This document shows positions 2,442 through 26,723 of a stretch of DNA of 32,000 nt, piece by piece; positions within the stretch are counted from its first letter, which is position 1; each line of letters begins with the position of its first letter. Source of the stretch: an uncultured Muribaculaceae bacterium. Its GTDB lineage: Bacteria; Pseudomonadota; Alphaproteobacteria; Rs-D84. The translations under genes were made by a program, and so were the position numbers. Below the pieces are notes generated by a model. That model did not search any database. It was given only the letters and a program-made list of their open reading frames with translations, and was not told the origin of the DNA. The stretch is taken from positions 661,101 to 693,100 of the forward strand of contig OZ246409.1 in assembly GCA_965231035.1 (NCBI GenBank), in the 5' to 3' direction.

Positions 2442-4030
2442 TGGTTCAATATCTAGATAATAATAAAAATTCTGGCTTTAATCAATGGATGGCGGGCAAA
2501 CAAAAAACTGATGGAAAGCCTTCAAAGTTTTCAGGATTTTTTTGGTGGATGATAATATTTTTATTGGCCTGGTGGTTGTTTTCAACTTGGTTTGCACTAA
2601 AGAAAGATGTTGAAACAAAAACAACTGAACCAACAGTTGTTGAAAATGTTTCACACGTTCCTGTAACAAATATAAACAATGATAAAGTTTCTGCAAATGT
2701 TCAAGGTCTGCGTGTTTCTAAAATAGAATTGAAAAGTTATAAACAAGATAGAAAACACAATGAAGGCAAAAATATTTCTTTGTTAGCAGGGGATAAGGAA
2801 TTCGCAGAAGTAGGTATGCTGGCAAATGGTACAACTGCGCCAACCGCTGAAACTGTTTGGAAATCAAACGGATCAGATGGTCAAAAAGTAATGACTTGGC
2901 GTAATGGTGACGGGGTTAACTTTAAACGCACAATCATTGTGAAAGATTATGTTGTTACAATCACAGATGAAATTAAAAACAACAGCAGTCGTGATTTTTC
3001 TTTTGCACCTTATGCCCTTATGAATCGTGAAGCAGCAAAAACAAAGGCTGTTTCGGTTGCAACTGGCGGGGTTGCGTTTGTAAATTCAGATATTGAACGT
3101 AATGGATGGGGAAGTCTGGATAAAAAATCATACGTTTATCAAACTACGAATGGTTTTACAGGATTTGAAGATCAGTATTGGGAAACGATTGTTGGTATAA
3201 ACAGTCCCGATCAAACAATACGTATGAAAAAAACAGGTAATTTTTATCAAACAGAGGCTTCTGCTGGACCAGTACAAGTTTCTGCGGGTAAAACTGTAAG
3301 CATAGAAACAAAACTGTTCGCTGGTCCACGTGATTCAAAAATATTGGCCGGGGCTGGTATAACAGGTTTGTCAGATACAATGGATTATGGTTGGTTCTGG
3401 TTCTTGTCCCAGCCGATGCTTTGGGCTTTGAACAGTTTGAACGTTTTGGTTATGAATTATGGTTTGGCAATAATATTGCTGACGTTGGTTCTGCGTGGAT
3501 TAATGTGGCCTTTGACACGTAAATCTTATACTTCAATGGCGGCAATGCAAAAAATGCAGCCAGAAATGCAAAAAATTCAAAAACTGTATGCGAATGATAA
3601 AATGCGTTTGCAAATGGAAATGATGAAGTTGTACCAAACACACAAGACTTCACCAATGTCCGGATGTCTGCCAATGTTATTGCAGATTCCAATTTTCTTT
3701 GCATTATATAAGGCTTTGTTAATTTCTATTCCAATGCGTCAGGCTGGTTTTTTATGGATTCAAGATTTATCTTTGATGGATCCTTACTTTATATTGCCAA
3801 TATTGATGGGTGCAACAATGTGGTGGCAACAACATCTGCAAGGAACAGGTGCCCAAGGTGGTGATAAAAATGATCCTATGGCACAAACCCAGAAAGTTAT
3901 GAAGTGGATGCCGATATTGTTCACAGCAATGTTTGCATGGATGCCGGCTGGGTTAGTTCTGTATTGGACCGTTTCAAATATGTTTGGAATAATGCAGATG
4001 TATATTATAAAAAGAAAAATGAAAAAATAA
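2441..4030 (+). CDS. yidC: membrane protein insertase YidC (Gram-negative type with large periplasmic P1 domain)
   Basis: 529 aa with an N-terminal TM, a ~300-aa periplasmic domain, and a conserved C-terminal core (YGLAIILLTLVLRGLMWPLTRKSYTSMAAMQKMQPEMQKIQKLY...). The start overlaps the lspA stop in TAATG. Confidence 0.92.
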   Translation: MVQYLDNNKNSGFNQWMAGKQKTDGKPSKFSGFFWWMIIFLLAWWLFSTWFALKKDVETKTTEPTVVENVSHVPVTNINNDKVSANVQGLRVSKIELKSYKQDRKHNEGKNISLLAGDKEFAEVGMLANGTTAPTAETVWKSNGSDGQKVMTWRNGDGVNFKRTIIVKDYVVTITDEIKNNSSRDFSFAPYALMNREAAKTKAVSVATGGVAFVNSDIERNGWGSLDKKSYVYQTTNGFTGFEDQYWETIVGINSPDQTIRMKKTGNFYQTEASAGPVQVSAGKTVSIETKLFAGPRDSKILAGAGITGLSDTMDYGWFWFLSQPMLWALNSLNVLVMNYGLAIILLTLVLRGLMWPLTRKSYTSMAAMQKMQPEMQKIQKLYANDKMRLQMEMMKLYQTHKTSPMSGCLPMLLQIPIFFALYKALLISIPMRQAGFLWIQDLSLMDPYFILPILMGATMWWQQHLQGTGAQGGDKNDPMAQTQKVMKWMPILFTAMFAWMPAGLVLYWTVSNMFGIMQMYIIKRKMKK

Positions 4031-4062
4031 AAAAATGTCGTAAGAAATTACGACATTTTTTT
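4031..4062. terminator. bidirectional terminator between yidC and the convergent 120-aa ORF
   Basis: A6-atgtcgtaa-GAAA-ttacgacat-T7. The stem is a perfect 9 bp with a GAAA tetraloop, and A/T runs flank both sides. The stop of the minus-strand ORF (4048-4050) lies in the 3' arm. Confidence 0.7.
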
Positions 4063-4410
4063 AAAATATTTATACAGTTGGTCTGGTGTCAATATCCATG
4101 GATTTTTTATCCCTAATGCCTGTTTGGTGAAACCAACACAAGTCAGAGAATATTTAATATGGCATAGAGTAGAGATGTTTTCTTGTTTGTGTTTTACTTG
4201 TATAAAAACCCAATCATTATTTTCTAATATTTTTAAATCTCGGGACTTTAATAAAAATATATCAATTTTTCTAATAGACGGATTTAATAGTAAATATTTT
4301 TGTTCTTTGCCGGTTGTTTTCTGCTGTATTAAAACTGCACAGTGACGGAATTTTTTGCAAAATATTTTAGGTATAATCTTGGAAGTTTTTTCTGAAAAAC
4401 CAATTATCAT
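4048..4410 (-). CDS. hypothetical protein (120 aa, basic, no recognisable family)
   Basis: A 120-codon open frame in very AT-rich DNA, where stops are frequent, ending exactly at a bidirectional terminator. The SD is weak (GAGA). I recognise no motif. Confidence 0.45.
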   Translation of the reverse strand: MIIGFSEKTSKIIPKIFCKKFRHCAVLIQQKTTGKEQKYLLLNPSIRKIDIFLLKSRDLKILENNDWVFIQVKHKQENISTLCHIKYSLTCVGFTKQALGIKNPWILTPDQLYKYFKKMS

Positions 4411-4470
4411 TTTTTTCTCGTTTAATTAGTGTCAGTACTATCTGTCAGGTAATACTGACATATTAGTAAT

Positions 4471-4818
4471 TCAGTCTATCCAGCCTTTATTCTTAGCAGC
4501 TTTTTCGATAGTTTGCATTGCGGTGTTCCAAATTGCAGCTTTTCGGTTTTCAGACCATATATGTTGATGAGGAGAGCGTTTTTTATCTCCAAATTCTTTC
4601 ATAACATCCAGTTGTTCACCGGTTAATAATCCAGATAAATAAAGTTTGGTAATTAATGTTTCTACGTCCAGTATTTCACATACTCGCCTGGTTGATGAAA
4701 TATTACGTTGGGAAAACCCATTCCTGATTTGTCTGGAATATAAAAACCAGAACCATAGTTGTTCTGCATTGTGGAACTTTTCCGACAATGAAACATTTTT
4801 TACTGTTTGCGCAGTCAT
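4471..4818 (-). CDS. hypothetical small protein (115 aa), possibly a DNA-binding regulator
   Basis: ATG is preceded by GGAGAG at 6-nt spacing. Trp-rich N-terminal helix (AEQLWFWFLYSRQIR). The segment LLTGEQLDVMKEFG loosely resembles sigma70-region-4/LuxR-type HTH, which is a weak impression only. Confidence 0.6.
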   Translation of the reverse strand: MTAQTVKNVSLSEKFHNAEQLWFWFLYSRQIRNGFSQRNISSTRRVCEILDVETLITKLYLSGLLTGEQLDVMKEFGDKKRSPHQHIWSENRKAAIWNTAMQTIEKAAKNKGWID

Positions 4819-5016: not shown

Positions 5017-7359
5017 TTATTTTATTGGCGGAAAGCAATCACCACCGCTACTGGGGCAACAGTTGAATCCTTGATCTTTCATGTCTGTGTAAACTTCGCC
5101 AGTACAACATCCATTTGTATCTGGTGCAGAACCGTCTTCACATGTTATTGCTTTCGTCTGAGTTTTTTCTCCACTCTCAAACGGATCCTTTATAGTTCCA
5201 TCTTCATTATATTTCAAGCCCAATACCTGTTCGTTATACGCTTGTGAATAAACAGGTTTACCGTTACTGTCTGTTGTTAACATTTTTTGTGTATTACCTT
5301 TGTCATCTTTGGTCGTCAAACTTGTTGCCTGTTGATTTTGATAAACAGCTTCTTGTTTCGCATTATTTTTTGCCTGATATTGGCTTGATTGGCAATAAAA
5401 TACAACAGTGCGATAATCCAATCCATCTTTTTGAATGGTTGCAGCACTATTTGCAGTAACTCCGCCTTTACCGTCGCAATATTTACTTAGATCAAAAGAC
5501 CTGACTTGACCAACCAGAGTATCTGGTTCTTTGACCCCAACTGTAATATCACGTTCAACTGTTGCTGCATAGCTTGAATCATAGTCGGTAATTGAACATT
5601 TCTTCCCGCTGTCCAGGCCACAGGTCACAATCAAATCATTTGGTGAAAATACAGTGATTCTGGTTCCAGCAGAAATAGAGAACGGTGGAACAGTATTATC
5701 AATCATATCAACCAATAATTTCTGGGCAACCGTATTCCATGCTTTGATAATTTCATTCTTGGCAAGCTCACTGGAACGAACCTGACCAGTTTGTGTAACA
5801 GTATTATTATCCAAATCAATTTGATTAACGAATTTGTCAGATATAGGTGCAATCATATTTACGGCGGCCGGTACAGCTGCTGTTAACAATGGCATAACGA
5901 ATTGTTCCATATAATCTGTGCTGCCGCGCCCCGGAACACCAGTTCTTCCCTGGGCATCAGCCGAGAAAGGTTTACCACCCATAAAGTTAAATTCCACGCC
6001 ATCTGGTCGAACGAAACGATACCAATCAATATTAACGCGACCGATGGATTTATAAGGTCCAGGCATATCTTGGTCTGAAACATATCCCAACATCATTGTT
6101 CCAGCTGGAATTATAATTGTGCGACCATTATCCGAATAAACATTTCTATCGACTGTTGCAGTAACTGGCAGACGTGTTTCCTTGGCAACTGCACGTATTT
6201 CAGAAACGATTGTGGCAGGAATTGGTTTATACTGACGCAACACAAATGTGCGGTCGTATGGTTTGCTGGAAACGGTTGCCTCGGACCCATAAAGTTTTGA
6301 TGATGGCAACCTTTCACTTTCAGGTTTTGCAGCAGAAATCACATGAGAAGATTTTCCATATGTCGCCGTTGCAAGTTCTTCCGAGCTTAACTGACGTGCT
6401 TTGTTCACTGTGCGGTTGTCAGCTGGGTTAGATAATTGAGGTATCGTACCGTTTGATATATTTCCATAACCAATATGTTCGGCATCTGTTCCAATTTTTC
6501 TGGATACATCTTTGATATCTGTAATTATGCCATTGTCAGGATTATAGATGCCAGTTGGTAAAACACAATCTTTGTCCGAAAATGGATGAAATTTATAAGT
6601 ACCTTTTTCTGGTTTTATCCAGCCGATTTGCTGACCAGTTATATTATACCCAGGAAAAGAAAAATCAGAACAAGCCTCAGAATTCATTTTAGTATTATCT
6701 GGTTTTGGTGCAGAAATAATTTCTTTATCCAAGGCAGGTTTAATATCTTCTTTTTGACCATCATCAGCAGAAACAAAAGGATCAGCAGGTGAAATAGATT
6801 CAATTTCATCCTTTATTTGTGGTTTTGTTTCTGCAACCGGTTCAGGTTTAATTTCTTTTTTTTCTGTTGCCCCAACTGCAATTGGAATCTTTTCCGTGCG
6901 GTTCATTTTCGCAGGTTGGTTTGCGCCACGCCAATCAATAAATAACGATACAGCCATAACATCCTGCTCTGCCTTTGGCGCATAATCCATACTGATTGTG
7001 CAAGAAATATTATTATTTATTTGACCGATGTTTTCACAAGTTGATTTTTTTGATAACCCGGGGATTTCTTTTGATAAACGAACCGTATCAATCTTTACAG
7101 GTACATTGGAAGATATTACAAACCGTTGGCTTTTTGCCTCGCCAATATTGGTTGTTGCCCAATCAAGTGAGTCAGGATCAATATGTAAAACAGCCTGGAC
7201 GTTTTCATTTGATTCAATGTTCGTCTGCTTTTTATCGCCACGAAATAACAAGGTAAGCAAAATAAGAACAACAATAAACGCAGCAGTCAGCAAAAGCCAT
7301 TGTACATGCTTTGGAGTGTTTTGTTTTAATTCTGAAAATTGTGTCTTTAGATTTGCCAT
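5017..7359 (-). CDS. virB10: VirB10/TrbI-family type IV secretion core protein, enlarged (780 aa) by extra N-proximal and C-terminal domains
   Basis: Short cytoplasmic N-terminus plus one TM (WLLLTAAFIVVLILLTLLF) and a Pro/Glu/Lys-rich linker. A TrbI-type barrel follows: IPATIVSEIR..LPVTATVDRNVYSDNGRTIIIPAGTMMLGYV..GRVNIDWYRFVRPDGVEF...ADAQGRTGVPGRGSTDY. It sits 7 nt downstream of virB9. Confidence 0.8.
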   Translation of the reverse strand: MANLKTQFSELKQNTPKHVQWLLLTAAFIVVLILLTLLFRGDKKQTNIESNENVQAVLHIDPDSLDWATTNIGEAKSQRFVISSNVPVKIDTVRLSKEIPGLSKKSTCENIGQINNNISCTISMDYAPKAEQDVMAVSLFIDWRGANQPAKMNRTEKIPIAVGATEKKEIKPEPVAETKPQIKDEIESISPADPFVSADDGQKEDIKPALDKEIISAPKPDNTKMNSEACSDFSFPGYNITGQQIGWIKPEKGTYKFHPFSDKDCVLPTGIYNPDNGIITDIKDVSRKIGTDAEHIGYGNISNGTIPQLSNPADNRTVNKARQLSSEELATATYGKSSHVISAAKPESERLPSSKLYGSEATVSSKPYDRTFVLRQYKPIPATIVSEIRAVAKETRLPVTATVDRNVYSDNGRTIIIPAGTMMLGYVSDQDMPGPYKSIGRVNIDWYRFVRPDGVEFNFMGGKPFSADAQGRTGVPGRGSTDYMEQFVMPLLTAAVPAAVNMIAPISDKFVNQIDLDNNTVTQTGQVRSSELAKNEIIKAWNTVAQKLLVDMIDNTVPPFSISAGTRITVFSPNDLIVTCGLDSGKKCSITDYDSSYAATVERDITVGVKEPDTLVGQVRSFDLSKYCDGKGGVTANSAATIQKDGLDYRTVVFYCQSSQYQAKNNAKQEAVYQNQQATSLTTKDDKGNTQKMLTTDSNGKPVYSQAYNEQVLGLKYNEDGTIKDPFESGEKTQTKAITCEDGSAPDTNGCCTGEVYTDMKDQGFNCCPSSGGDCFPPIK

Positions 7360-7366
7360 AATTTTA

Positions 7367-8839
7367 TTACTGTATCCTGACCACGTGGCAGCTGGTGCCC
7401 GAGAATTTCAACATTTGATCACATAGTTTTTGTGCAGTGTCAATATCTGACAATGGACCAATTCGTAAACGATACAAACGTGCAGTAGCGGAATCTGAAC
7501 CCAGTTCGCCAACACCATGTTCATCAACTGCAAAGAATACCATACTCTTATAAGGTGTTAAAATTCCTTTGCCGTCTTCTCCGCTGAATTTAGCCATCAA
7601 ATCTGTCCAATAATCGTTCAATGCCTTGACCGAGGTATCAGATTTTAATTCCACAGCAACACCAGATTGATTACTGGATATCAATGGAATATTTGTTTGT
7701 GGTAAATAAGCCCCAGCAGTATTTCTTTCTGTTGGTAACATATTTACACCTTGGGTTGAACCACTGTAAGAACCAGAAACTGAAGAAACATTTGATGTAC
7801 CATAATTTACAGTTGGTGCAACACCATAACCATTTGTTGAAACAACAGCAGCACCGGTTCCATTATAAGTTACGTTATTCAAAGATTGTCCAGAAGACAT
7901 GCTTTGGGCAACGTTTGCTTCGGCCAATGCCATTACACTGTTTGTGTCTGTGATCAAGAATGGTTTTTCACGTTTCTTGATACAAACAATTCTTTGACCT
8001 GAACGCAATATCATATCGCCAACAGCTTCGACAATTAATAATCTGCCGTTTTCACCGTCTGTGCGGAAACCAACCGGGCTTTCGCCACCTTCGACCAACA
8101 GCGATACAACTGGGCGTTGGGTCATTGCAATTACTTTGTCACCGAAATCAATGTATGTGAATATTCTATCACGCCATACACGTTCTGGTGCAATTACGTA
8201 ATCATCTGGATTTGGAACAAATATATCCAAATCAAAACGGAATTCACTGGGGTCGATTTTCATAGATTTAATCCAACCATAATCTTCGCCATCAACACCG
8301 ACAGAAGAACTGCCAGTTGAAACTTTTTTAAATATAGAATTCATTCCCGCGGATTGTGATGCAGAACCAGAAGAACTTGGTAAACTAGAATTGCCATCTA
8401 AAACAATATCAACCTGGGAATATGTTATTTCACTGCTGTTCGCAGGTTCACTGCGTAAATAGAAGATGTATTTATTTCCGGACTTTCCGGTAACAATCAA
8501 ATTTGTATCTGCACCTTGGTTACTGCCAGCAGGTGTTACATACATTGAACGACCATTTTTCTGTGGATCGAATTCAAACAAGTCTTGGTTTCCAACAATA
8601 CCGTCCGCAATCTGTTCACCTTCGGGCAGGTTAATCATAGTGACCATCCCGTTGCGTAATTTAACAGGCAGAACACTGCCCGCAGTCCATGTCAATTGTG
8701 CGTATCCAGGCTTGGTACTGCCAGATGCCATATTTGCATTTGGATTATCCCAAGCATCTTGAACACCTTCGGCAAACGACGAACTTTGCAAACAAACCAA
8801 TGCAAGTATGAAAAAAATCGATAATTTTGAAAATTTCAT
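7367..8839 (-). CDS. virB9: VirB9/CagX/TrbG-family type IV secretion outer-membrane core protein with a C-terminal SPOR-like domain
   Basis: Signal peptide MKFSKLSIFFILALVCLQSSSFA|EG. VirB9 N-domain: MVTMINLPEGEQIADGIVGNQDLFEF...DTNLIVTGKSGNKYIFYLRSEP. VirB9 C-domain: RIFTYIDFGDKV...RPVVSLLVEGGESPVGFRTDGENGRLLIVEAV. The start is trimmed from the ORF-track 8917, which overlapped virB8, to the ATG at 8839 preceded by AAGGAA. Confidence 0.8.
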   Translation of the reverse strand: MKFSKLSIFFILALVCLQSSSFAEGVQDAWDNPNANMASGSTKPGYAQLTWTAGSVLPVKLRNGMVTMINLPEGEQIADGIVGNQDLFEFDPQKNGRSMYVTPAGSNQGADTNLIVTGKSGNKYIFYLRSEPANSSEITYSQVDIVLDGNSSLPSSSGSASQSAGMNSIFKKVSTGSSSVGVDGEDYGWIKSMKIDPSEFRFDLDIFVPNPDDYVIAPERVWRDRIFTYIDFGDKVIAMTQRPVVSLLVEGGESPVGFRTDGENGRLLIVEAVGDMILRSGQRIVCIKKREKPFLITDTNSVMALAEANVAQSMSSGQSLNNVTYNGTGAAVVSTNGYGVAPTVNYGTSNVSSVSGSYSGSTQGVNMLPTERNTAGAYLPQTNIPLISSNQSGVAVELKSDTSVKALNDYWTDLMAKFSGEDGKGILTPYKSMVFFAVDEHGVGELGSDSATARLYRLRIGPLSDIDTAQKLCDQMLKFSGTSCHVVRIQ

Positions 8840-8867
8840 GACAGTTCCTTTATTAACTTTCTCTGCT

Positions 8868-9581
8868 TTAATTAATTGTTTCTGAAATCCATTTAAATTC
8901 CAGAGGATCTTCTTCACCGGATTCCACTTTGTATTCGGAAACCCGAATTCCCAAAGGATTATCCAGCCGATCAGTCCATTTTATTTTATTTCCTAATTCC
9001 AATTTCAGTATGATTGTATAATCTTTTTGATACTTCTGTCCATCACTATTTGTGCAGAAATATCTAAAACTTACCGCATAGGTATCCAACTCACCGGTTT
9101 TCTTATTTTCTCTGTGTGGGGCAATTCCTGTAAACTCAACAGGGCAATGAAATTCAAAATCTGGAACCTCGTCCATATATGCCGTCCACATCTGGGTTTT
9201 TGCAAAATTTGCATATACCTCTGGCGTGCTCCACATATAAACGGTTCCGTCTTCGCTGGCAGACCATTTCTTTTGCATAACACCGGCATTTGGAATAATT
9301 TCGTTTCTGGCCTTGATATATTCTTTTATAAAAGCCTGTTTGTAAAACTCGATATTTTCTTCGTTTGGTGAAAAAGATGAAAGTTTGATTTCTAAATCAC
9401 TTCTGGGTTGAGTGGTCAAGAAAAAGACTTGGGTTTTGTTCAAAGGATACATTTTTACCAATGTTACAACAAGAACAATCACAACAACCAAAGCTGCTGA
9501 AAAAACAAAAGTCATCAATCTGGATAGCAAAATCGGTGGTTCTACACTTTCTGACACTGGCCTATCTCTCCCTTCGTCCAA
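8868..9581 (-). CDS. virB8: VirB8-family type IV secretion inner-membrane protein
   Basis: About 230 aa with one N-terminal TM (FVFSAALVVVIVLVVTLV) and a periplasmic domain with FIKEYIKARNEI. The conserved VirB8 NPxG motif lies near the C-terminus (DNPLGIRVSEYKV). The start is uncertain: TTG at 9581, GTG at 9557 (preceded by GGGAGAG), or ATG at 9515. Confidence 0.75.
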   Translation of the reverse strand: MDEGRDRPVSESVEPPILLSRLMTFVFSAALVVVIVLVVTLVKMYPLNKTQVFFLTTQPRSDLEIKLSSFSPNEENIEFYKQAFIKEYIKARNEIIPNAGVMQKKWSASEDGTVYMWSTPEVYANFAKTQMWTAYMDEVPDFEFHCPVEFTGIAPHRENKKTGELDTYAVSFRYFCTNSDGQKYQKDYTIILKLELGNKIKWTDRLDNPLGIRVSEYKVESGEEDPLEFKWISETIN

Positions 9582-24734: not shown

Positions 24735-26723
24735 TTAATCTGTATCGGTTGCAGCAGTGACAACATCGTCTTCTGAAGCGGCACCTGTAATACTTGTACA
24801 TGTTCTTATGTAAGAACTGCAAGCGTTTCTGGCAGAAGCCTTGGTAACGGTTGATGTGCTTGAATATCCGTTTGTAGACAAGCATGATGCAACATCGCTT
24901 AAGCAACTTTCTGCATATTTAGACAGAATTTCGTCTTGTGAATTCTTAATCACAGCCAAAGTATTCTGCAAGTAACCCTTAATAACATCATTGCTCTTGT
25001 TAAATGTTTTGTTTGTACCTGTGTATGTAAAATCCTGACACTGGTTTAAAACAGATATGCACATACCATAATTCTTACTGTCACTGCTGTCATTATAGCC
25101 AATTTTATTTTGTAGATACACAATCATGTTTGTTACAGGTGTTACAGCAGTAATAGAATTTGTTACATATTCTCCAATATTTCCAGTACCCCAAGCATTA
25201 TTGGTACCAGTTGCATAATTCCATGTAGCATAAATATTGCTTCCGGATGTTGATGTAGAAGTAATATTTCCACCTGAAACACCAGGCTGACTGCCAACAA
25301 CAACTTTGCCATTTACAATGTACTTACCAGTTGGATCCAAGCAGTTTTCATAATCACTGCCGCAAACGAAATCGTCTTGCATACAAGAATCCAAAGCGCT
25401 GATGCAAGAACGCATATCTGTGTAGGTATTCTTTTTCTGAACAACCAACAATCTGGCTTTTTGCAAGAAGCTTTGAGCATTTGTTAAAGTTGTTGTCATC
25501 TGAGAATTTGCATCAGTCAAGCTGCGTTCATAAGCTATACACTGTTTGTCGATTTCCAAATCATAGCTGTTGGTGATAATTGTTGTATCAACACCTTGTG
25601 ATTTGCAAGAATCCAAAACGGCTGCTTTGCAACGTGCAGTTGCTGTCTTGTAAAGTTCAGCACCACGTTGATTGCTGATGCTGTTCGCATTATCGCCACC
25701 CAAAAATTCTGATAAATCAAATCCTGAGTTATCAAAACTCATACTGGAAAGACTGGATAATAAATCTGTGGATGAACTTGTGCTGCTGGTAGCATTTGCA
25801 CTTTTTACATCCAATATCAGACTTTTGATTTTATCCAAATCTGTTTTTAACTGAGTTGTATCTGACTTACCTTGCATTGCAGCTTCGGCCTCAGTCTGAG
25901 TGAACAATGAAGAAACTTCGTCTTTACTTAAACCTATGTACTGAATCTTCTGAGCAACGTCTTGTAAATTCTGAGTTGCTTCTTTCAATGCAGCTTCGGT
26001 CTTGGCGTAATTTTTAATATTTGCAGAACAGCTGCAACGTCCTTGATTGTCATCCAAAACATTACAGAAGTTATCCATACATTGTGTAAACTGAGCCTTG
26101 CAATAATCGGATGTTTGGGCAATTTCGTCCATCGAAGATACCGAAGTAGTGTTGGCACTTGAAGAGCTGGTTGTAGTTGCAGCACGAACGGTTGTGGTTG
26201 GTGCACGTGAAACAACGCTGGAAGTCGAAGTAGGTCTGACACTGACACGACCAATGTAAAGAGGTGTATTAACAGTATCTGTTTGAGTCAGGCTGGCAGC
26301 ACGAGAAGAATTAGCAGAAGATGTAGTGTTCCTACGTGATACAACATTTTGATTTGTTTGTCCGGCTGTGCTGCGAGAAGCAGTTGTTGTGGAATAATCG
26401 CGTGCACGAACTGTATCTGCAGTTCTGTTTGAAACAACGCGTTGAGTAGTATTTCTTTCGGTTGCAGAATACGAGGTTGAAGGTACAGCACGGCTGGCAG
26501 CACGTGCGGTTATTGTGTGCTGAATAGATTTTTCAGGAATAACTGGATTTACAGGTTGCGCCTCTTGCACATCTTGTACATTTTGATCTTCAACTGGTGC
26601 AGTGTAATCAGCTGTACTATCGTCAGTATATTCAACCGAGTCATCGTAATAAATCGGTGCAACTTCTGCAAAAGCGGGCATAACTAGTAAACCACTAAGT
26701 ACTGCAATAAATCTTTTCATCAA
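24735..26723 (-). CDS. secreted Ser/Thr-rich, cysteine-repeat protein of unknown family (662 aa)
   Basis: Sec signal peptide MMKRFIAVLSGLLVMPAFA|EV, an acidic stretch, and a ~130-aa S/T/R/N low-complexity region. The remaining ~455 aa are helical-looking and hold all 18 Cys by my count, mostly as CxxxLxxC pairs. Confidence 0.8.
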   Translation of the reverse strand: MMKRFIAVLSGLLVMPAFAEVAPIYYDDSVEYTDDSTADYTAPVEDQNVQDVQEAQPVNPVIPEKSIQHTITARAASRAVPSTSYSATERNTTQRVVSNRTADTVRARDYSTTTASRSTAGQTNQNVVSRRNTTSSANSSRAASLTQTDTVNTPLYIGRVSVRPTSTSSVVSRAPTTTVRAATTTSSSSANTTSVSSMDEIAQTSDYCKAQFTQCMDNFCNVLDDNQGRCSCSANIKNYAKTEAALKEATQNLQDVAQKIQYIGLSKDEVSSLFTQTEAEAAMQGKSDTTQLKTDLDKIKSLILDVKSANATSSTSSSTDLLSSLSSMSFDNSGFDLSEFLGGDNANSISNQRGAELYKTATARCKAAVLDSCKSQGVDTTIITNSYDLEIDKQCIAYERSLTDANSQMTTTLTNAQSFLQKARLLVVQKKNTYTDMRSCISALDSCMQDDFVCGSDYENCLDPTGKYIVNGKVVVGSQPGVSGGNITSTSTSGSNIYATWNYATGTNNAWGTGNIGEYVTNSITAVTPVTNMIVYLQNKIGYNDSSDSKNYGMCISVLNQCQDFTYTGTNKTFNKSNDVIKGYLQNTLAVIKNSQDEILSKYAESCLSDVASCLSTNGYSSTSTVTKASARNACSSYIRTCTSITGAASEDDVVTAATDTD

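What the first reader, a model, noticed from the sequence alone, without database searches (positions are those of the whole stretch)
7370..7663. VirB9 homologue fused to a C-terminal SPOR-like peptidoglycan-binding domain
**Seen in sequence**
- After the normal VirB9 C-domain (ending ...GQRIVCIKK) there is a ~90-aa Gly/Ser/Asn/Thr-rich linker.
- A ~98-aa module then follows: GVAVELKSDTSVKALNDYWTDLMAKF...KSMVFFAV...ARLYRLRIGPLSDIDTAQKLCDQMLKFSGTSCHVVRIQ.

**Established knowledge**
- The beta-alpha-beta-beta-alpha-beta layout, the LYRvRvGP core and the paired Cys (..A..LC..L.....C.VV) match the SPOR-domain consensus.
- SPOR domains occur in FtsN, DamX, DedD and RlpA and bind denuded septal glycan strands.

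**Inference**
- I am not aware of SPOR being described as part of a T4SS outer-membrane core protein. Wall interaction is normally supplied by VirB1-type lytic transglycosylases or OmpA-like lipoproteins.
- A SPOR anchor would tether the complex to peptidoglycan, or target it to septa and new poles.
Basis: partly seen in the sequence, partly recalled or inferred. Interest (0 to 1): 0.7.

Follow-up and report, generated by a model that had tools for sequence, protein, structure and literature searches.

The report
VirB9 secretion protein with SPOR tail
A core outer-membrane protein (VirB9) of a type IV secretion machine in tiny-genome gut alphaproteobacteria carries a conserved, slightly altered cell-wall-binding SPOR domain on a flexible tether, which probably anchors or positions the machine in the cell wall; no paper in the library searched describes this combination.

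Summary
Window 7367..8839 (-) is one 490-aa VirB9 gene. Its last 98 codons (7663..7370, exactly as reported) form a folded module, and several independent tests identify that module as a SPOR domain:
- Pfam SPOR scores 23.4 bits against a cut-off of 21.
- All 34 homologous tails hit SPOR.
- A profile of the tails retrieves bona fide SPOR proteins from 1.84 billion sequences.
- hhalign against canonical SPOR domains gives 99.1% probability, E 1.6e-18.
- An AlphaFold model shows beta-alpha-beta-beta-alpha-beta, and its top three PDB matches are the RlpA and DedD SPOR domains.

The fusion is not a frameshift or assembly join. 274 species genomes encode the tail. 73 of the 80 loci fetched carry one uninterrupted VirB9-plus-tail frame, in conserved chromosomal synteny (nusG | virB8-virB9-virB10-two small ORFs | yidC). 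More distant VirB9 lineages carry it too.

The hallmark SPOR glutamine that contacts the glycan is glutamate in 286 of 287 tails, while the RlpA-type Leu-x-Arg-x-Arg face and a cysteine pair are kept.

The most likely function is a peptidoglycan tether or positioning device for the secretion core, analogous to Legionella DotK. The ligand is untested. I rate it a new variant of a known kind, of moderate interest.

The parts
7367..8839 (-). virB9 gene (490 aa plus stop), probable start MKFSKL; the listed GTG ORF extends upstream to 8917
   Evidence: Pfam CagX 7.2e-22. Identical to database protein P0001 over all 490 aa. One uninterrupted frame through the tail.
8768..8839 (-). Predicted signal peptide (aa 1-24, MKFSKLSIFFILALVCLQSSSFAE)
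   Evidence: Read directly from the sequence (hydrophobic core, then Ala-x-Ala-like end). Poorly conserved, as signal peptides usually are. Inference only.
8390..8752 (-). VirB9 N-terminal beta-domain (aa 30-150), the I-layer part
   Evidence: AlphaFold pLDDT about 80-88, all-beta. Lies within the CagX match.
7970..8299 (-). VirB9 C-terminal domain (aa 181-290, ends ...GQRIVCIKKR), the O-layer part
   Evidence: End of the CagX match. Identity 0.91-1.0 across 119 homologues. Not confidently folded as a monomer.
7895..7945 (-). Conserved predicted helix after the VirB9 C-domain (aa 299-315, SVMALAEANVAQS...)
   Evidence: Helix in the full-length model. Identity 0.84-0.99.
7742..7885 (-). Hypervariable low-complexity tether (aa 319-366; 62% Gly/Ser/Asn/Thr)
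   Evidence: Identity 0.12-0.4 with length variation. pLDDT 25-40.
7664..7741 (-). Conserved pre-SPOR motif (aa 367-392, MLPTERNTAGAYLPQTNIPLISSNQS). The core [GA]x[YF]LPxxx[IV]P[LF][IV] is kept even in distant fusions.
   Evidence: Invariant P, R, T, G, L, I, P, I, Q in alignment A1. Present in distant tails. The model places IPLI as an extra strand.
7370..7663 (-). SPOR-type domain (aa 393-490): beta1 GVAVELKS, alpha1, beta2, beta3 LYRLRIGP, alpha2 with Cys473, beta4 with Cys484
   Evidence: Pfam SPOR 23.4 bits, cut-off 21. 34 of 34 homologues hit SPOR. hhalign 99.1%. Model and Foldseek hits to RlpA and DedD SPOR.
7649..7651 (-). GAA codon for Glu397, at the position of the hallmark SPOR glutamine (RlpA Q270, FtsN Q251)
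   Evidence: Alignments. Glu in 286, Asp in 1 and Gln in 0 of 287 aligned tails. Role of the Gln is taken from PMC6895207.
8868..9581 (-). virB8, upstream in the same operon
   Evidence: Pfam VirB8 6.6e-13. Syntenic in 76 of 80 loci.
5017..7359 (-). virB10 (780 aa; TrbI domain aa 374-575, with long N- and C-terminal extensions)
   Evidence: Pfam TrbI 5.4e-19. NCBIfam VirB10 domain. Syntenic in 80 of 80 loci.
4048..4818 (-). Two conserved small ORFs (115 and 120 aa) downstream of virB10, probably the end of the operon
   Evidence: tblastn hits in 72 and 71 of 80 loci, in the same order. No family hit. A bidirectional terminator-like hairpin at 4028-4063 follows.

Best explanation
This is a chromosomal type IV secretion VirB9 whose C-terminus has acquired a SPOR-family peptidoglycan-binding domain.

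Shown here:
- The protein has a signal peptide, both VirB9 domains, a conserved helix, a roughly 50-aa disordered variable tether, a conserved 25-aa motif, and a 98-aa SPOR fold with a probable disulfide pair.
- The fusion is vertically inherited in the reduced-genome gut lineage that includes Candidatus Enterousia.
- It also occurs in more distant alphaproteobacterial virB8-virB9-virB10(-virB11) operons.

Inferred:
- The VirB9 C-domain sits at the periphery of the outer-membrane layer of a roughly 14-fold core complex.
- Each machine would therefore dangle a ring of about 14 SPOR domains into the periplasm on tethers long enough to reach the sacculus.
- Multivalent binding to glycan strands would fix the machine in the wall. 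If the ligand is the amidase-generated denuded glycan, binding would also bias assembly to septa and new poles.
- This would be the job done by the separate OmpA-like lipoprotein DotK in the Legionella Dot/Icm core.
- The glycan-facing Leu-x-Arg-x-Arg of RlpA is retained, but the hallmark Gln is Glu, so the exact glycan form recognised may differ from that of classical SPOR domains.
For: Identity and reality of the domain:
- Pfam SPOR hits.
- A profile of the tails finds canonical SPOR proteins at whole-library E 1e-4 to 5e-7. Those proteins score 71-117 bits on Pfam SPOR.
- hhalign 99.1%, E 1.6e-18 over 84 columns.
- The AlphaFold topology is beta-alpha-beta-beta-alpha-beta in two independent runs.
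- The top three Foldseek PDB hits are 6i09_A RlpA SPOR (target TM 0.70), 6ztg DedD SPOR and 6i05 RlpA SPOR.

Fusion is genuine and selected:
- 120 listed homologues at 70% identity or more, almost all full length.
- 274 species genomes encode the tail.
- 73 of 80 loci have one 481-596-codon frame.
- Synteny is conserved.
- The tail is about as conserved as the VirB9 N-domain, while the linker is not.
- Distant fusions have CagX plus the tail and sit in virB operons.

Binding-face conservation:
- RlpA ..L-H-R-V-R-L-G-P aligns with L-Y-R-L-R-I-G-P.
- Arg457 is kept in 284 of 290 tails, Arg459 in 290 of 290, and the Cys pair in 290 of 290.
- The roles of RlpA L307, R309 and R311 come from PMC6895207.

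Precedents:
- DotK binds peptidoglycan and promotes polar Dot/Icm localisation (PMC10266036).
- Core complexes have 14-fold symmetry, with the VirB9 C-domain in the O-layer (PMC9371333).
- SPOR domains are typically joined to a membrane anchor by disordered low-complexity linkers (PMC6895207).
Against: - No binding or localisation data exist, and the organisms are uncultured.
- The single highly conserved, ligand-contacting SPOR residue (Gln) is Glu in 286 of 287 tails. Glu cannot donate the two hydrogen bonds described for RlpA Q270.
- Pfam aligns only the C-terminal half of its SPOR model (positions 39-76), and the full-length protein scores 20.0 bits, just under the cut-off of 21.
- Sequence searches of the PDB give no significant SPOR hit.
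- Foldseek E-values are modest (5e-3) and model confidence is moderate (pLDDT 69.6).
- The position of the VirB9 C-terminus relative to the outer membrane was not modelled here.
- I could not check whether these genomes encode the amidases that make denuded glycans.
Confidence: 0.6

Rival explanations
1. The tail is a repurposed SPOR fold. It descends from SPOR but no longer reads denuded glycan. The fixed Gln-to-Glu change retunes it to a differently modified glycan (for example N-deacetylated GlcN, whose free amine could pair with the carboxylate) or to chain ends. T4SS placement would then follow a different wall mark.
For: - Glu in 286 and Asp in 1 of 287 tails, never Gln, including lineages only 28-39% identical to the window tail.
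- In canonical relatives the position is Gln in most of 61 domains and invariant in the 8-sequence reference set.
- RlpA Q270 donates hydrogen bonds to the MurNAc lactyl carboxylate and the GlcNAc N-acetyl oxygen (PMC6895207).
- In Legionella, GlcNAc deacetylation state controls DotK binding and T4SS polar localisation (PMC10266036).
Against: - The rest of the RlpA-type binding face is retained.
- Most SPOR-glycan contacts are made by backbone atoms.
- A few repeats of ordinary multi-SPOR proteins also carry Glu, Asp or His at this position, so the change need not alter specificity.
- There is no direct evidence for any alternative ligand.
Confidence: 0.2
2. The tail acts as a protein-protein module or plug inside the machine. 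It would dock on another T4SS part (the extended VirB10, a VirB7-like lipoprotein, or the conserved pre-SPOR motif of a neighbouring subunit) and stabilise or gate the core complex rather than bind the wall.
For: - A conserved 25-aa motif precedes the fold and is modelled as an added strand.
- VirB10 in these lineages has unusual large extensions: 780 aa here and 2274 aa in L081.
- The Gln-to-Glu change is compatible with loss of glycan binding.
Against: - The closest relatives are ordinary periplasmic multi-SPOR proteins.
- The basic glycan-facing residues are invariant.
- A hypervariable tether whose length varies between homologues (64-97 aa by one measure) suits reaching a distant, non-stoichiometric target better than a fixed docking site.
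- VirB10 and VirB8 evolve much faster (about 50% identity) than the tail.
Confidence: 0.08
3. The tail is a surface-displayed adhesin. The VirB9 C-terminus emerges at the cell surface, and the tethered SPOR domains bind exposed peptidoglycan of a partner or prey cell, giving contact for a parasitic or epibiotic lifestyle.
For: - These bacteria have genomes under 1 Mb, lack respiration and standard transporters, and live in dense gut communities (PMC12306168).
- The Cys pair is compatible with any oxidising compartment.
- From my own recollection, not checked here: older epitope-tag work reported surface accessibility of the C-terminal part of pKM101 TraO.
Against: - In solved core complexes the outer-membrane channel is formed by VirB10, and the VirB9 C-domain lies on the periplasmic side of the O-layer (PMC9371333).
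- SPOR proteins characterised so far act on the cell's own wall.
- Nothing found here points to export of the tail.
Confidence: 0.05
4. The finding is an artefact: the tail belongs to a separate downstream SPOR gene joined to virB9 by a frameshift or mis-assembly.
For: In one distant lineage, gene callers split virB9 and a 101-116-aa SPOR ORF.
Against: - Those splits coincide with runs of N or with single-base differences between 3.6-4.6x coverage assemblies inside the linker.
- In the window's own lineage the single frame is seen in 73 of 80 independent species genomes and in 119 full-length proteins.
- The seven shorter frames, and the one locus where none was detected, were not examined individually; several of those matches lie close to a contig end.
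Confidence: 0.01

Closest known systems
SPOR domains of RlpA, FtsN, DamX, DedD and CwlC (Pfam PF05036)
   Same: - Same fold and topology.
- Same beta3 motif (x-Arg-x-Arg-x-Gly-Pro), with RlpA's L307/R309/R311 face.
- Placed at the C-terminus after a disordered low-complexity tether.
- Like RlpA, it hangs from an outer-membrane-associated protein.
   Different: - The hallmark beta1 Gln is Glu.
- There are long insertions in the alpha1-beta2 and beta2-beta3 loops, so Pfam aligns only the second half.
- An alpha2-beta4 Cys pair is present instead of FtsN's beta1-beta4 pair.
- A conserved extra N-terminal motif is present.
- The carrier is a secretion-system subunit, not a divisome or lytic protein.
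Alphaproteobacterial multi-SPOR proteins (2-3 SPOR repeats, 430-690 aa; e.g. P0201, P0202, P0205)
   Same: They are the nearest sequence relatives of the tail. They share Trp in alpha1, the YRLRxGP strand and the invariant C..L....G..C.VV pair. They are the likely donors of the domain.
   Different: They have no VirB9 part. Gln is retained in most repeats, and the loops are shorter.
Legionella DotK (OmpA-like lipoprotein of the Dot/Icm outer-membrane core)
   Same: It is a peptidoglycan-binding module that is a stoichiometric part of a T4SS outer-membrane core. It contributes to polar placement and is sensitive to glycan modification (PMC10266036; PMC9371333).
   Different: - DotK is a separate protein with an unrelated fold.
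- OmpA-like domains bind the peptide (meso-DAP) part of peptidoglycan.
- It belongs to a type IVB system.
Canonical VirB9/TraO/TrbG/CagX and Rickettsia RvhB9a/b
   Same: - It has the N- and C-terminal VirB9 domains and the virB8-virB9-virB10 gene order.
- It is chromosomal, vertically inherited and sits among housekeeping genes, as in the Rickettsiales rvh system (PMC2653234).
   Different: - Rickettsia typhi VirB9a and VirB9b are 247 and 158 aa, too short to carry such a tail.
- This protein scores far below NCBI's VirB9 equivalog cut-off (50.9 against 217.7).
- No match to the tail exists in 72,556 plasmids.
Extra domains on other T4SS core subunits (Xanthomonas VirB7 N0 domain, H. pylori CagX/CagY/CagT expansions)
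   Same: They follow the same evolutionary theme: an accessory domain grafted onto a core-complex subunit changes how the ring interacts with the envelope (PMC9371333).
   Different: In the sources read here, those additions are not described as peptidoglycan-binding modules.

Membership tests
SPOR domain (PF05036) | Profile match at or above the curated Pfam threshold | tested here: met
   - Isolated tail: 23.4 bits against a cut-off of 21, E 7.5e-5.
- Whole protein: 20.0 bits, just below the cut-off. Only model positions 39-76 align.
- All 34 homologous tails hit SPOR at E <= 0.1, best 4.8e-9.
- hhalign against canonical SPORs gives 99.1%, E 1.6e-18, across the whole domain.
SPOR domain (PF05036) | RNP-like beta-alpha-beta-beta-alpha-beta fold, a four-stranded sheet backed by two helices | tested here: met
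   AlphaFold models give E28-36, H39-53, E69-73, E91-98, H101-115 and E120-124 in tail numbering. The same elements appear in the full-length run. The Foldseek top three are RlpA and DedD SPOR structures. Model confidence is moderate, with a core pLDDT of 70-85.
SPOR domain (PF05036) | Conserved beta1 glutamine that hydrogen-bonds MurNAc lactyl and GlcNAc N-acetyl (RlpA Q270, FtsN Q251, DamX Q351) | tested here: not met
   The position is Glu397. Across 287 aligned tails it is Glu in 286, Asp in 1 and Gln in 0. The role of the Gln is taken from PMC6895207. This is the preferred residue in SPOR domains, not an absolute rule: a few canonical repeats also deviate.
SPOR domain (PF05036) | Basic or hydrophobic glycan-binding face on beta3 (RlpA L307/R309/R311; FtsN W283/R285) | tested here: met
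   L-Y-R-L-R-I-G-P aligns with RlpA L-H-R-V-R-L-G-P. Arg457 is kept in 284 of 290 tails and Arg459 in 290 of 290.
SPOR domain (PF05036) | Binds denuded peptidoglycan glycan strands and localises to septa | not testable with these tools
   This needs sacculus pull-down, ITC with synthetic glycans, and localisation of a periplasmic fluorescent fusion.
VirB9/TrbG/CagX (PF03524) | CagX profile match covering both VirB9 domains | tested here: met
   78.6 bits against a cut-off of 34.2, model positions 5-197 of 198. NCBI's strict VirB9 equivalog model is not reached (50.9 against 217.7), so this is a divergent member.
VirB9/TrbG/CagX (PF03524) | Encoded between virB8 and virB10 in a T4SS operon | tested here: met
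   VirB8 and TrbI/VirB10 flank the gene on the same strand. The order is conserved in 76-80 of 80 related loci.
Rickettsiales-type (rvh-like) chromosomal T4SS | Chromosomal, vertically inherited, split into scattered islets, with duplicated virB8/virB9 and no nearby mobile-element genes | tested here: inconclusive
   - The locus lies between yidC and tRNA-Trp/nusG/rplK in conserved synteny, and no virB11 or virD4 follows virB10.
- Duplicated virB8 is seen only in the distant fusion lineages.
- The rest of the genome (virB2-6, B11, D4) could not be inspected.

The most novel reading that the evidence does not exclude
The VirB9 tail would define a distinct 'Glu-type' SPOR subclass that reads a wall mark other than the classical denuded glycan, for example N-deacetylated or otherwise edited strands. 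It would thereby write the position of a type IV secretion machine directly into cell-wall chemistry. That is a one-protein solution to the polar or septal placement problem that Legionella solves with DotK plus a peptidoglycan deacetylase.
Probability: 0.2. Interest if true: 0.75.

Novelty: new variant of a known kind. Interest (0 to 1): 0.5.

Why it matters
How secretion machines are placed and held in the cell wall is only partly understood. Known solutions use separate lytic transglycosylases or OmpA-like or LysM proteins.

- Here a septum- or pole-reading domain is fused directly to a core ring subunit, at roughly 14 copies per machine. This gives a simple, testable model for wall anchoring and spatial targeting of a T4SS.
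- It extends the known partners of SPOR domains beyond division and wall-remodelling proteins.
- Bacteria with genomes under 1 Mb, and several related lineages, have kept the fusion. This argues that the machine and its wall tether are central to the lifestyle of an abundant but uncultured group of gut alphaproteobacteria.
- The fixed Gln-to-Glu change offers a natural experiment on SPOR ligand specificity.

Tried and rejected
1. Sequence searches of the PDB with the tail, with profile A1 and with profile A3 gave no significant SPOR hit. The best hits were antibody heavy chains at E about 0.1, and CwlC SPOR only at E 1.1. I treated these as uninformative. The canonical SPOR profile A2 itself reaches RlpA only at E 0.02.
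3. Word-indexed protein searches with the tail alone returned almost only contig-end fragments of the same family. These were useful for showing abundance but not for finding new architectures.
4. In a distant lineage, gene callers list virB9 and a separate small SPOR ORF, which looked like a 'Rosetta stone' split. Reading the DNA showed scaffold gaps (N runs) or single-base discrepancies between low-coverage assemblies inside the linker. I therefore do not count them as true stand-alone genes.
5. tblastn of the tail against 72,556 plasmids found no match, so this is not a feature of known conjugative plasmids.
6. No second SPOR-like domain was found in the six-frame translation of the window.
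7. The weak Apo-CIII, Rpf1_C and FliN_N Pfam hits were dismissed as noise.
8. The frameshift or assembly-join hypothesis was rejected.
Full report
**What is at the coordinates**

The minus-strand ORF 7367..8917 contains a 490-aa protein that starts at MKFSKL (ATG at 8839). It is 100% identical over its full length to database protein P0001. Pfam assigns it to CagX/VirB9 (78.6 bits against a cut-off of 34.2). It lies between VirB8 (8868..9581) and a 780-aa VirB10/TrbI (5017..7359) on the same strand.

The finding's coordinates are exact. Gly393 begins at 7663 and Gln490 ends at 7370, followed by TAA TAA. virB10 starts 8 nt later.

The window is chromosomal and housekeeping around this locus:
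- One side carries a kefB-like gene, lspA and yidC.
- The other side carries tRNA-Trp, nusG, rplKAJL, rpoB and rpoC.

**Is the tail a SPOR domain?**

Six lines of evidence agree.
1. Pfam SPOR scores 23.4 bits (cut-off 21) on the isolated tail and 20.0 bits in the whole protein. Only the C-terminal half of the model aligns.
2. All 34 homologous tails hit SPOR, best E 4.8e-9.
3. A profile of the tails was searched exhaustively against 1.84 billion representative proteins. It retrieved 50 proteins. Besides VirB9 fusions, these are canonical multi-SPOR proteins that score 71-117 bits on Pfam SPOR.
4. Profile-profile comparison of 17 diverse VirB9 tails with 8 canonical SPOR domains gives 99.1% probability, E 1.6e-18, over 84 columns that cover the whole fold.
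5. AlphaFold predicts beta-alpha-beta-beta-alpha-beta for the tail alone (pLDDT 69.6, core 70-85) and again within the full-length protein.
6. The three best Foldseek matches in the PDB are the RlpA SPOR domain with bound denuded glycan (6i09_A, target TM 0.70), DedD SPOR (6ztg) and RlpA SPOR (6i05).

Plain sequence searches of the PDB were not informative. This is expected for a family with under 20% pairwise identity (PMC6895207).

**Is the fusion real?**

Yes.
- 120 listed homologues at 70% identity or more are almost all full length.
- A scan of one genome per GTDB species found 274 genomes that encode the tail.
- In 73 of the 80 loci fetched, a single 481-596-codon frame runs from VirB9 through the tail. 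I did not examine the others individually; several of those matches lie close to a contig end.
- The order rplK-nusG | virB8-virB9-virB10-orf115-orf120 | yidC is conserved.
- Per-residue conservation across 119 proteins is 0.91-1.0 in the VirB9 C-domain, about 0.8-0.9 in the tail, and 0.1-0.4 in the variable linker.

The related records are gut and rumen metagenome-assembled genomes labelled Candidatus Enterousia, Alphaproteobacteria or Rickettsiales. Enterousia belongs to the order Rs-D84. Its members are described as rod-shaped bacteria with genomes under 1 Mb, no respiration and peptidoglycan synthesis genes (PMC12306168; taxonomy).

More divergent fusions also exist. Their tails are 28-39% identical to the window tail and they still carry CagX. 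They sit in virB8-virB8-virB9-virB10-virB11-like operons.

In one such lineage virB9 and the SPOR ORF appear split. This traces to N-gaps and low-coverage base differences inside the linker.

**Anatomy, corrected**

The '~90-aa linker' has three parts:
- a conserved predicted helix (aa 299-315);
- a hypervariable stretch of about 48 aa that is 62% Gly/Ser/Asn/Thr (aa 319-366). Linker length between conserved anchor motifs varies from 64 to 97 aa among close homologues;
- a conserved motif, MLPTERNTAGAYLPQTNIPLISSNQ (aa 367-391). Its core [GA]x[YF]LPxxx[IV]P[LF][IV] persists in distant lineages and is modelled as an extra strand.

**What matches SPOR and what does not**

According to the RlpA-glycan structures, four side chains contact the glycan: Q270, R302, R309 and R311, with L307 adding hydrophobic contacts. 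Only the Gln is highly conserved across SPOR domains. FtsN Q251, S254, W283, R285 and I313 are needed for septal localisation (PMC6895207).

- The tail's beta3 strand, L-Y-R-L-R-I-G-P, aligns residue for residue with RlpA's L-H-R-V-R-L-G-P.
- Arg457 is kept in 284 of 290 tails and Arg459 in 290 of 290.
- The beta1 Gln is Glu397 (codon 7651..7649). Across 287 aligned tails it is Glu in 286, Asp in 1 and never Gln.
- In the canonical relatives, Gln is invariant in the 8-sequence reference set and dominant among 61 repeat domains. A few Glu, Asp or His exceptions occur.
- The Cys473/Cys484 pair (alpha2/beta4) is present in 290 of 290 tails. It is shared with those alphaproteobacterial multi-SPOR proteins. 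It is not the FtsN C252-C312 pair, so it marks a subfamily and is not part of the general SPOR consensus.

**Mechanism**

Shown: a secreted VirB9 with a tethered SPOR-type fold, conserved and co-inherited with virB8 and virB10.

Established knowledge: minimal T4SS cores contain about 14 copies each of VirB7, VirB9 and VirB10, with the VirB9 C-domain at the outside of the O-layer (PMC9371333). SPOR domains are normally joined to a membrane anchor by disordered linkers, and RlpA hangs its SPOR domain from the outer membrane.

Inference: a ring of about 14 tethered SPOR domains binds glycan strands around the machine. This anchors it and, if the ligand is amidase-made denuded glycan, biases assembly to septa and new poles.

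The nearest functional precedent is DotK. It is an OmpA-like lipoprotein in the Legionella core complex that binds peptidoglycan in a manner dependent on GlcNAc acetylation, and it promotes polar localisation (PMC10266036). The Gln-to-Glu change keeps open the possibility that the tail reads a modified glycan.

**Novelty**

- Full-text searches found no paper containing both 'VirB9' and 'SPOR domain', and no paper combining SPOR domains with T4SS core complexes.
- Classical Rickettsia VirB9a and VirB9b are 247 and 158 aa, too short to carry such a tail (PMC2653234).
- No plasmid in PLSDB encodes the tail.
- Automated annotation has touched it. Some homologues carry precomputed PF05036+PF03524, and NCBI names some fragments 'SPOR domain-containing protein, partial', while full-length proteins are named only TrbG/VirB9.

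I therefore rate it a new variant of a known kind: a T4SS core subunit with a built-in peptidoglycan-binding module, and a new carrier for SPOR.

Interest is moderate at 0.5. Wall-binding accessories on secretion systems are familiar. A SPOR domain fused directly to VirB9, with a fixed change at the key ligand residue, is unexpected and experimentally tractable.

Noticed in passing
window 5017..7359 (-): VirB10 is 780 aa, but the TrbI/VirB10 domain covers only aa 374-575. There is a long N-terminal region with a weak 'choice-of-anchor D' hit. There is also a roughly 200-aa C-terminal extension ending in a Cys-rich stretch (…CCTGEVYTDMKDQGFNCCPSSGGDCFPPIK). In a distant fusion lineage VirB10 reaches 2274 aa (L081).
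   Followed up: partly
window 4048..4818 (-): Two small ORFs (115 and 120 aa) lie directly downstream of virB10. They have no Pfam or NCBIfam match but are conserved in order in 71-72 of 80 related loci. A bidirectional terminator-like hairpin at 4028-4063 follows. They are possible unknown T4SS accessory proteins.
   Followed up: partly
window 7664..7741 (-): A conserved 25-aa motif lies just before the SPOR fold ([GA]x[YF]LPxxx[IV]P[LF][IV]). It is retained in tails only about 30% identical to the window tail. AlphaFold adds IPLI as an extra strand. Its role (sheet extension, autoinhibition or docking) is unknown.
   Followed up: partly
window 24735..26723 (-): A 662-aa predicted secreted protein has a long Ser/Thr-rich low-complexity region and a Cys-rich C-terminal half. 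No family was assigned. It lies next to mraZ. It may be a surface or envelope protein.
   Followed up: no
L084-L087 (loci 7900-8060): In a distant lineage, virB9 and the SPOR tail are called as two overlapping genes. The break coincides with N-gaps or single-base differences between 3.6-4.6x coverage assemblies in a GC-rich linker, so it is probably an assembly artefact and not a true split.
   Followed up: yes
P0196-P0226 (representative proteins): The nearest non-VirB9 relatives are proteins with 2-3 tandem SPOR repeats, all carrying the same Cys pair. The middle repeats often replace the hallmark Gln with Glu, Asp or His. SPOR repeats within one protein may therefore differ in ligand preference.
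   Followed up: partly
window 7970..7990 (-), VirB9 ...GQRIVCIKKR: An invariant Cys (Cys286) sits at the end of the VirB9 C-domain. From my own recollection, not checked here, this resembles the Agrobacterium VirB9 cysteine that forms a disulfide with the lipoprotein VirB7. No VirB7 candidate was identified in the window.
   Followed up: no
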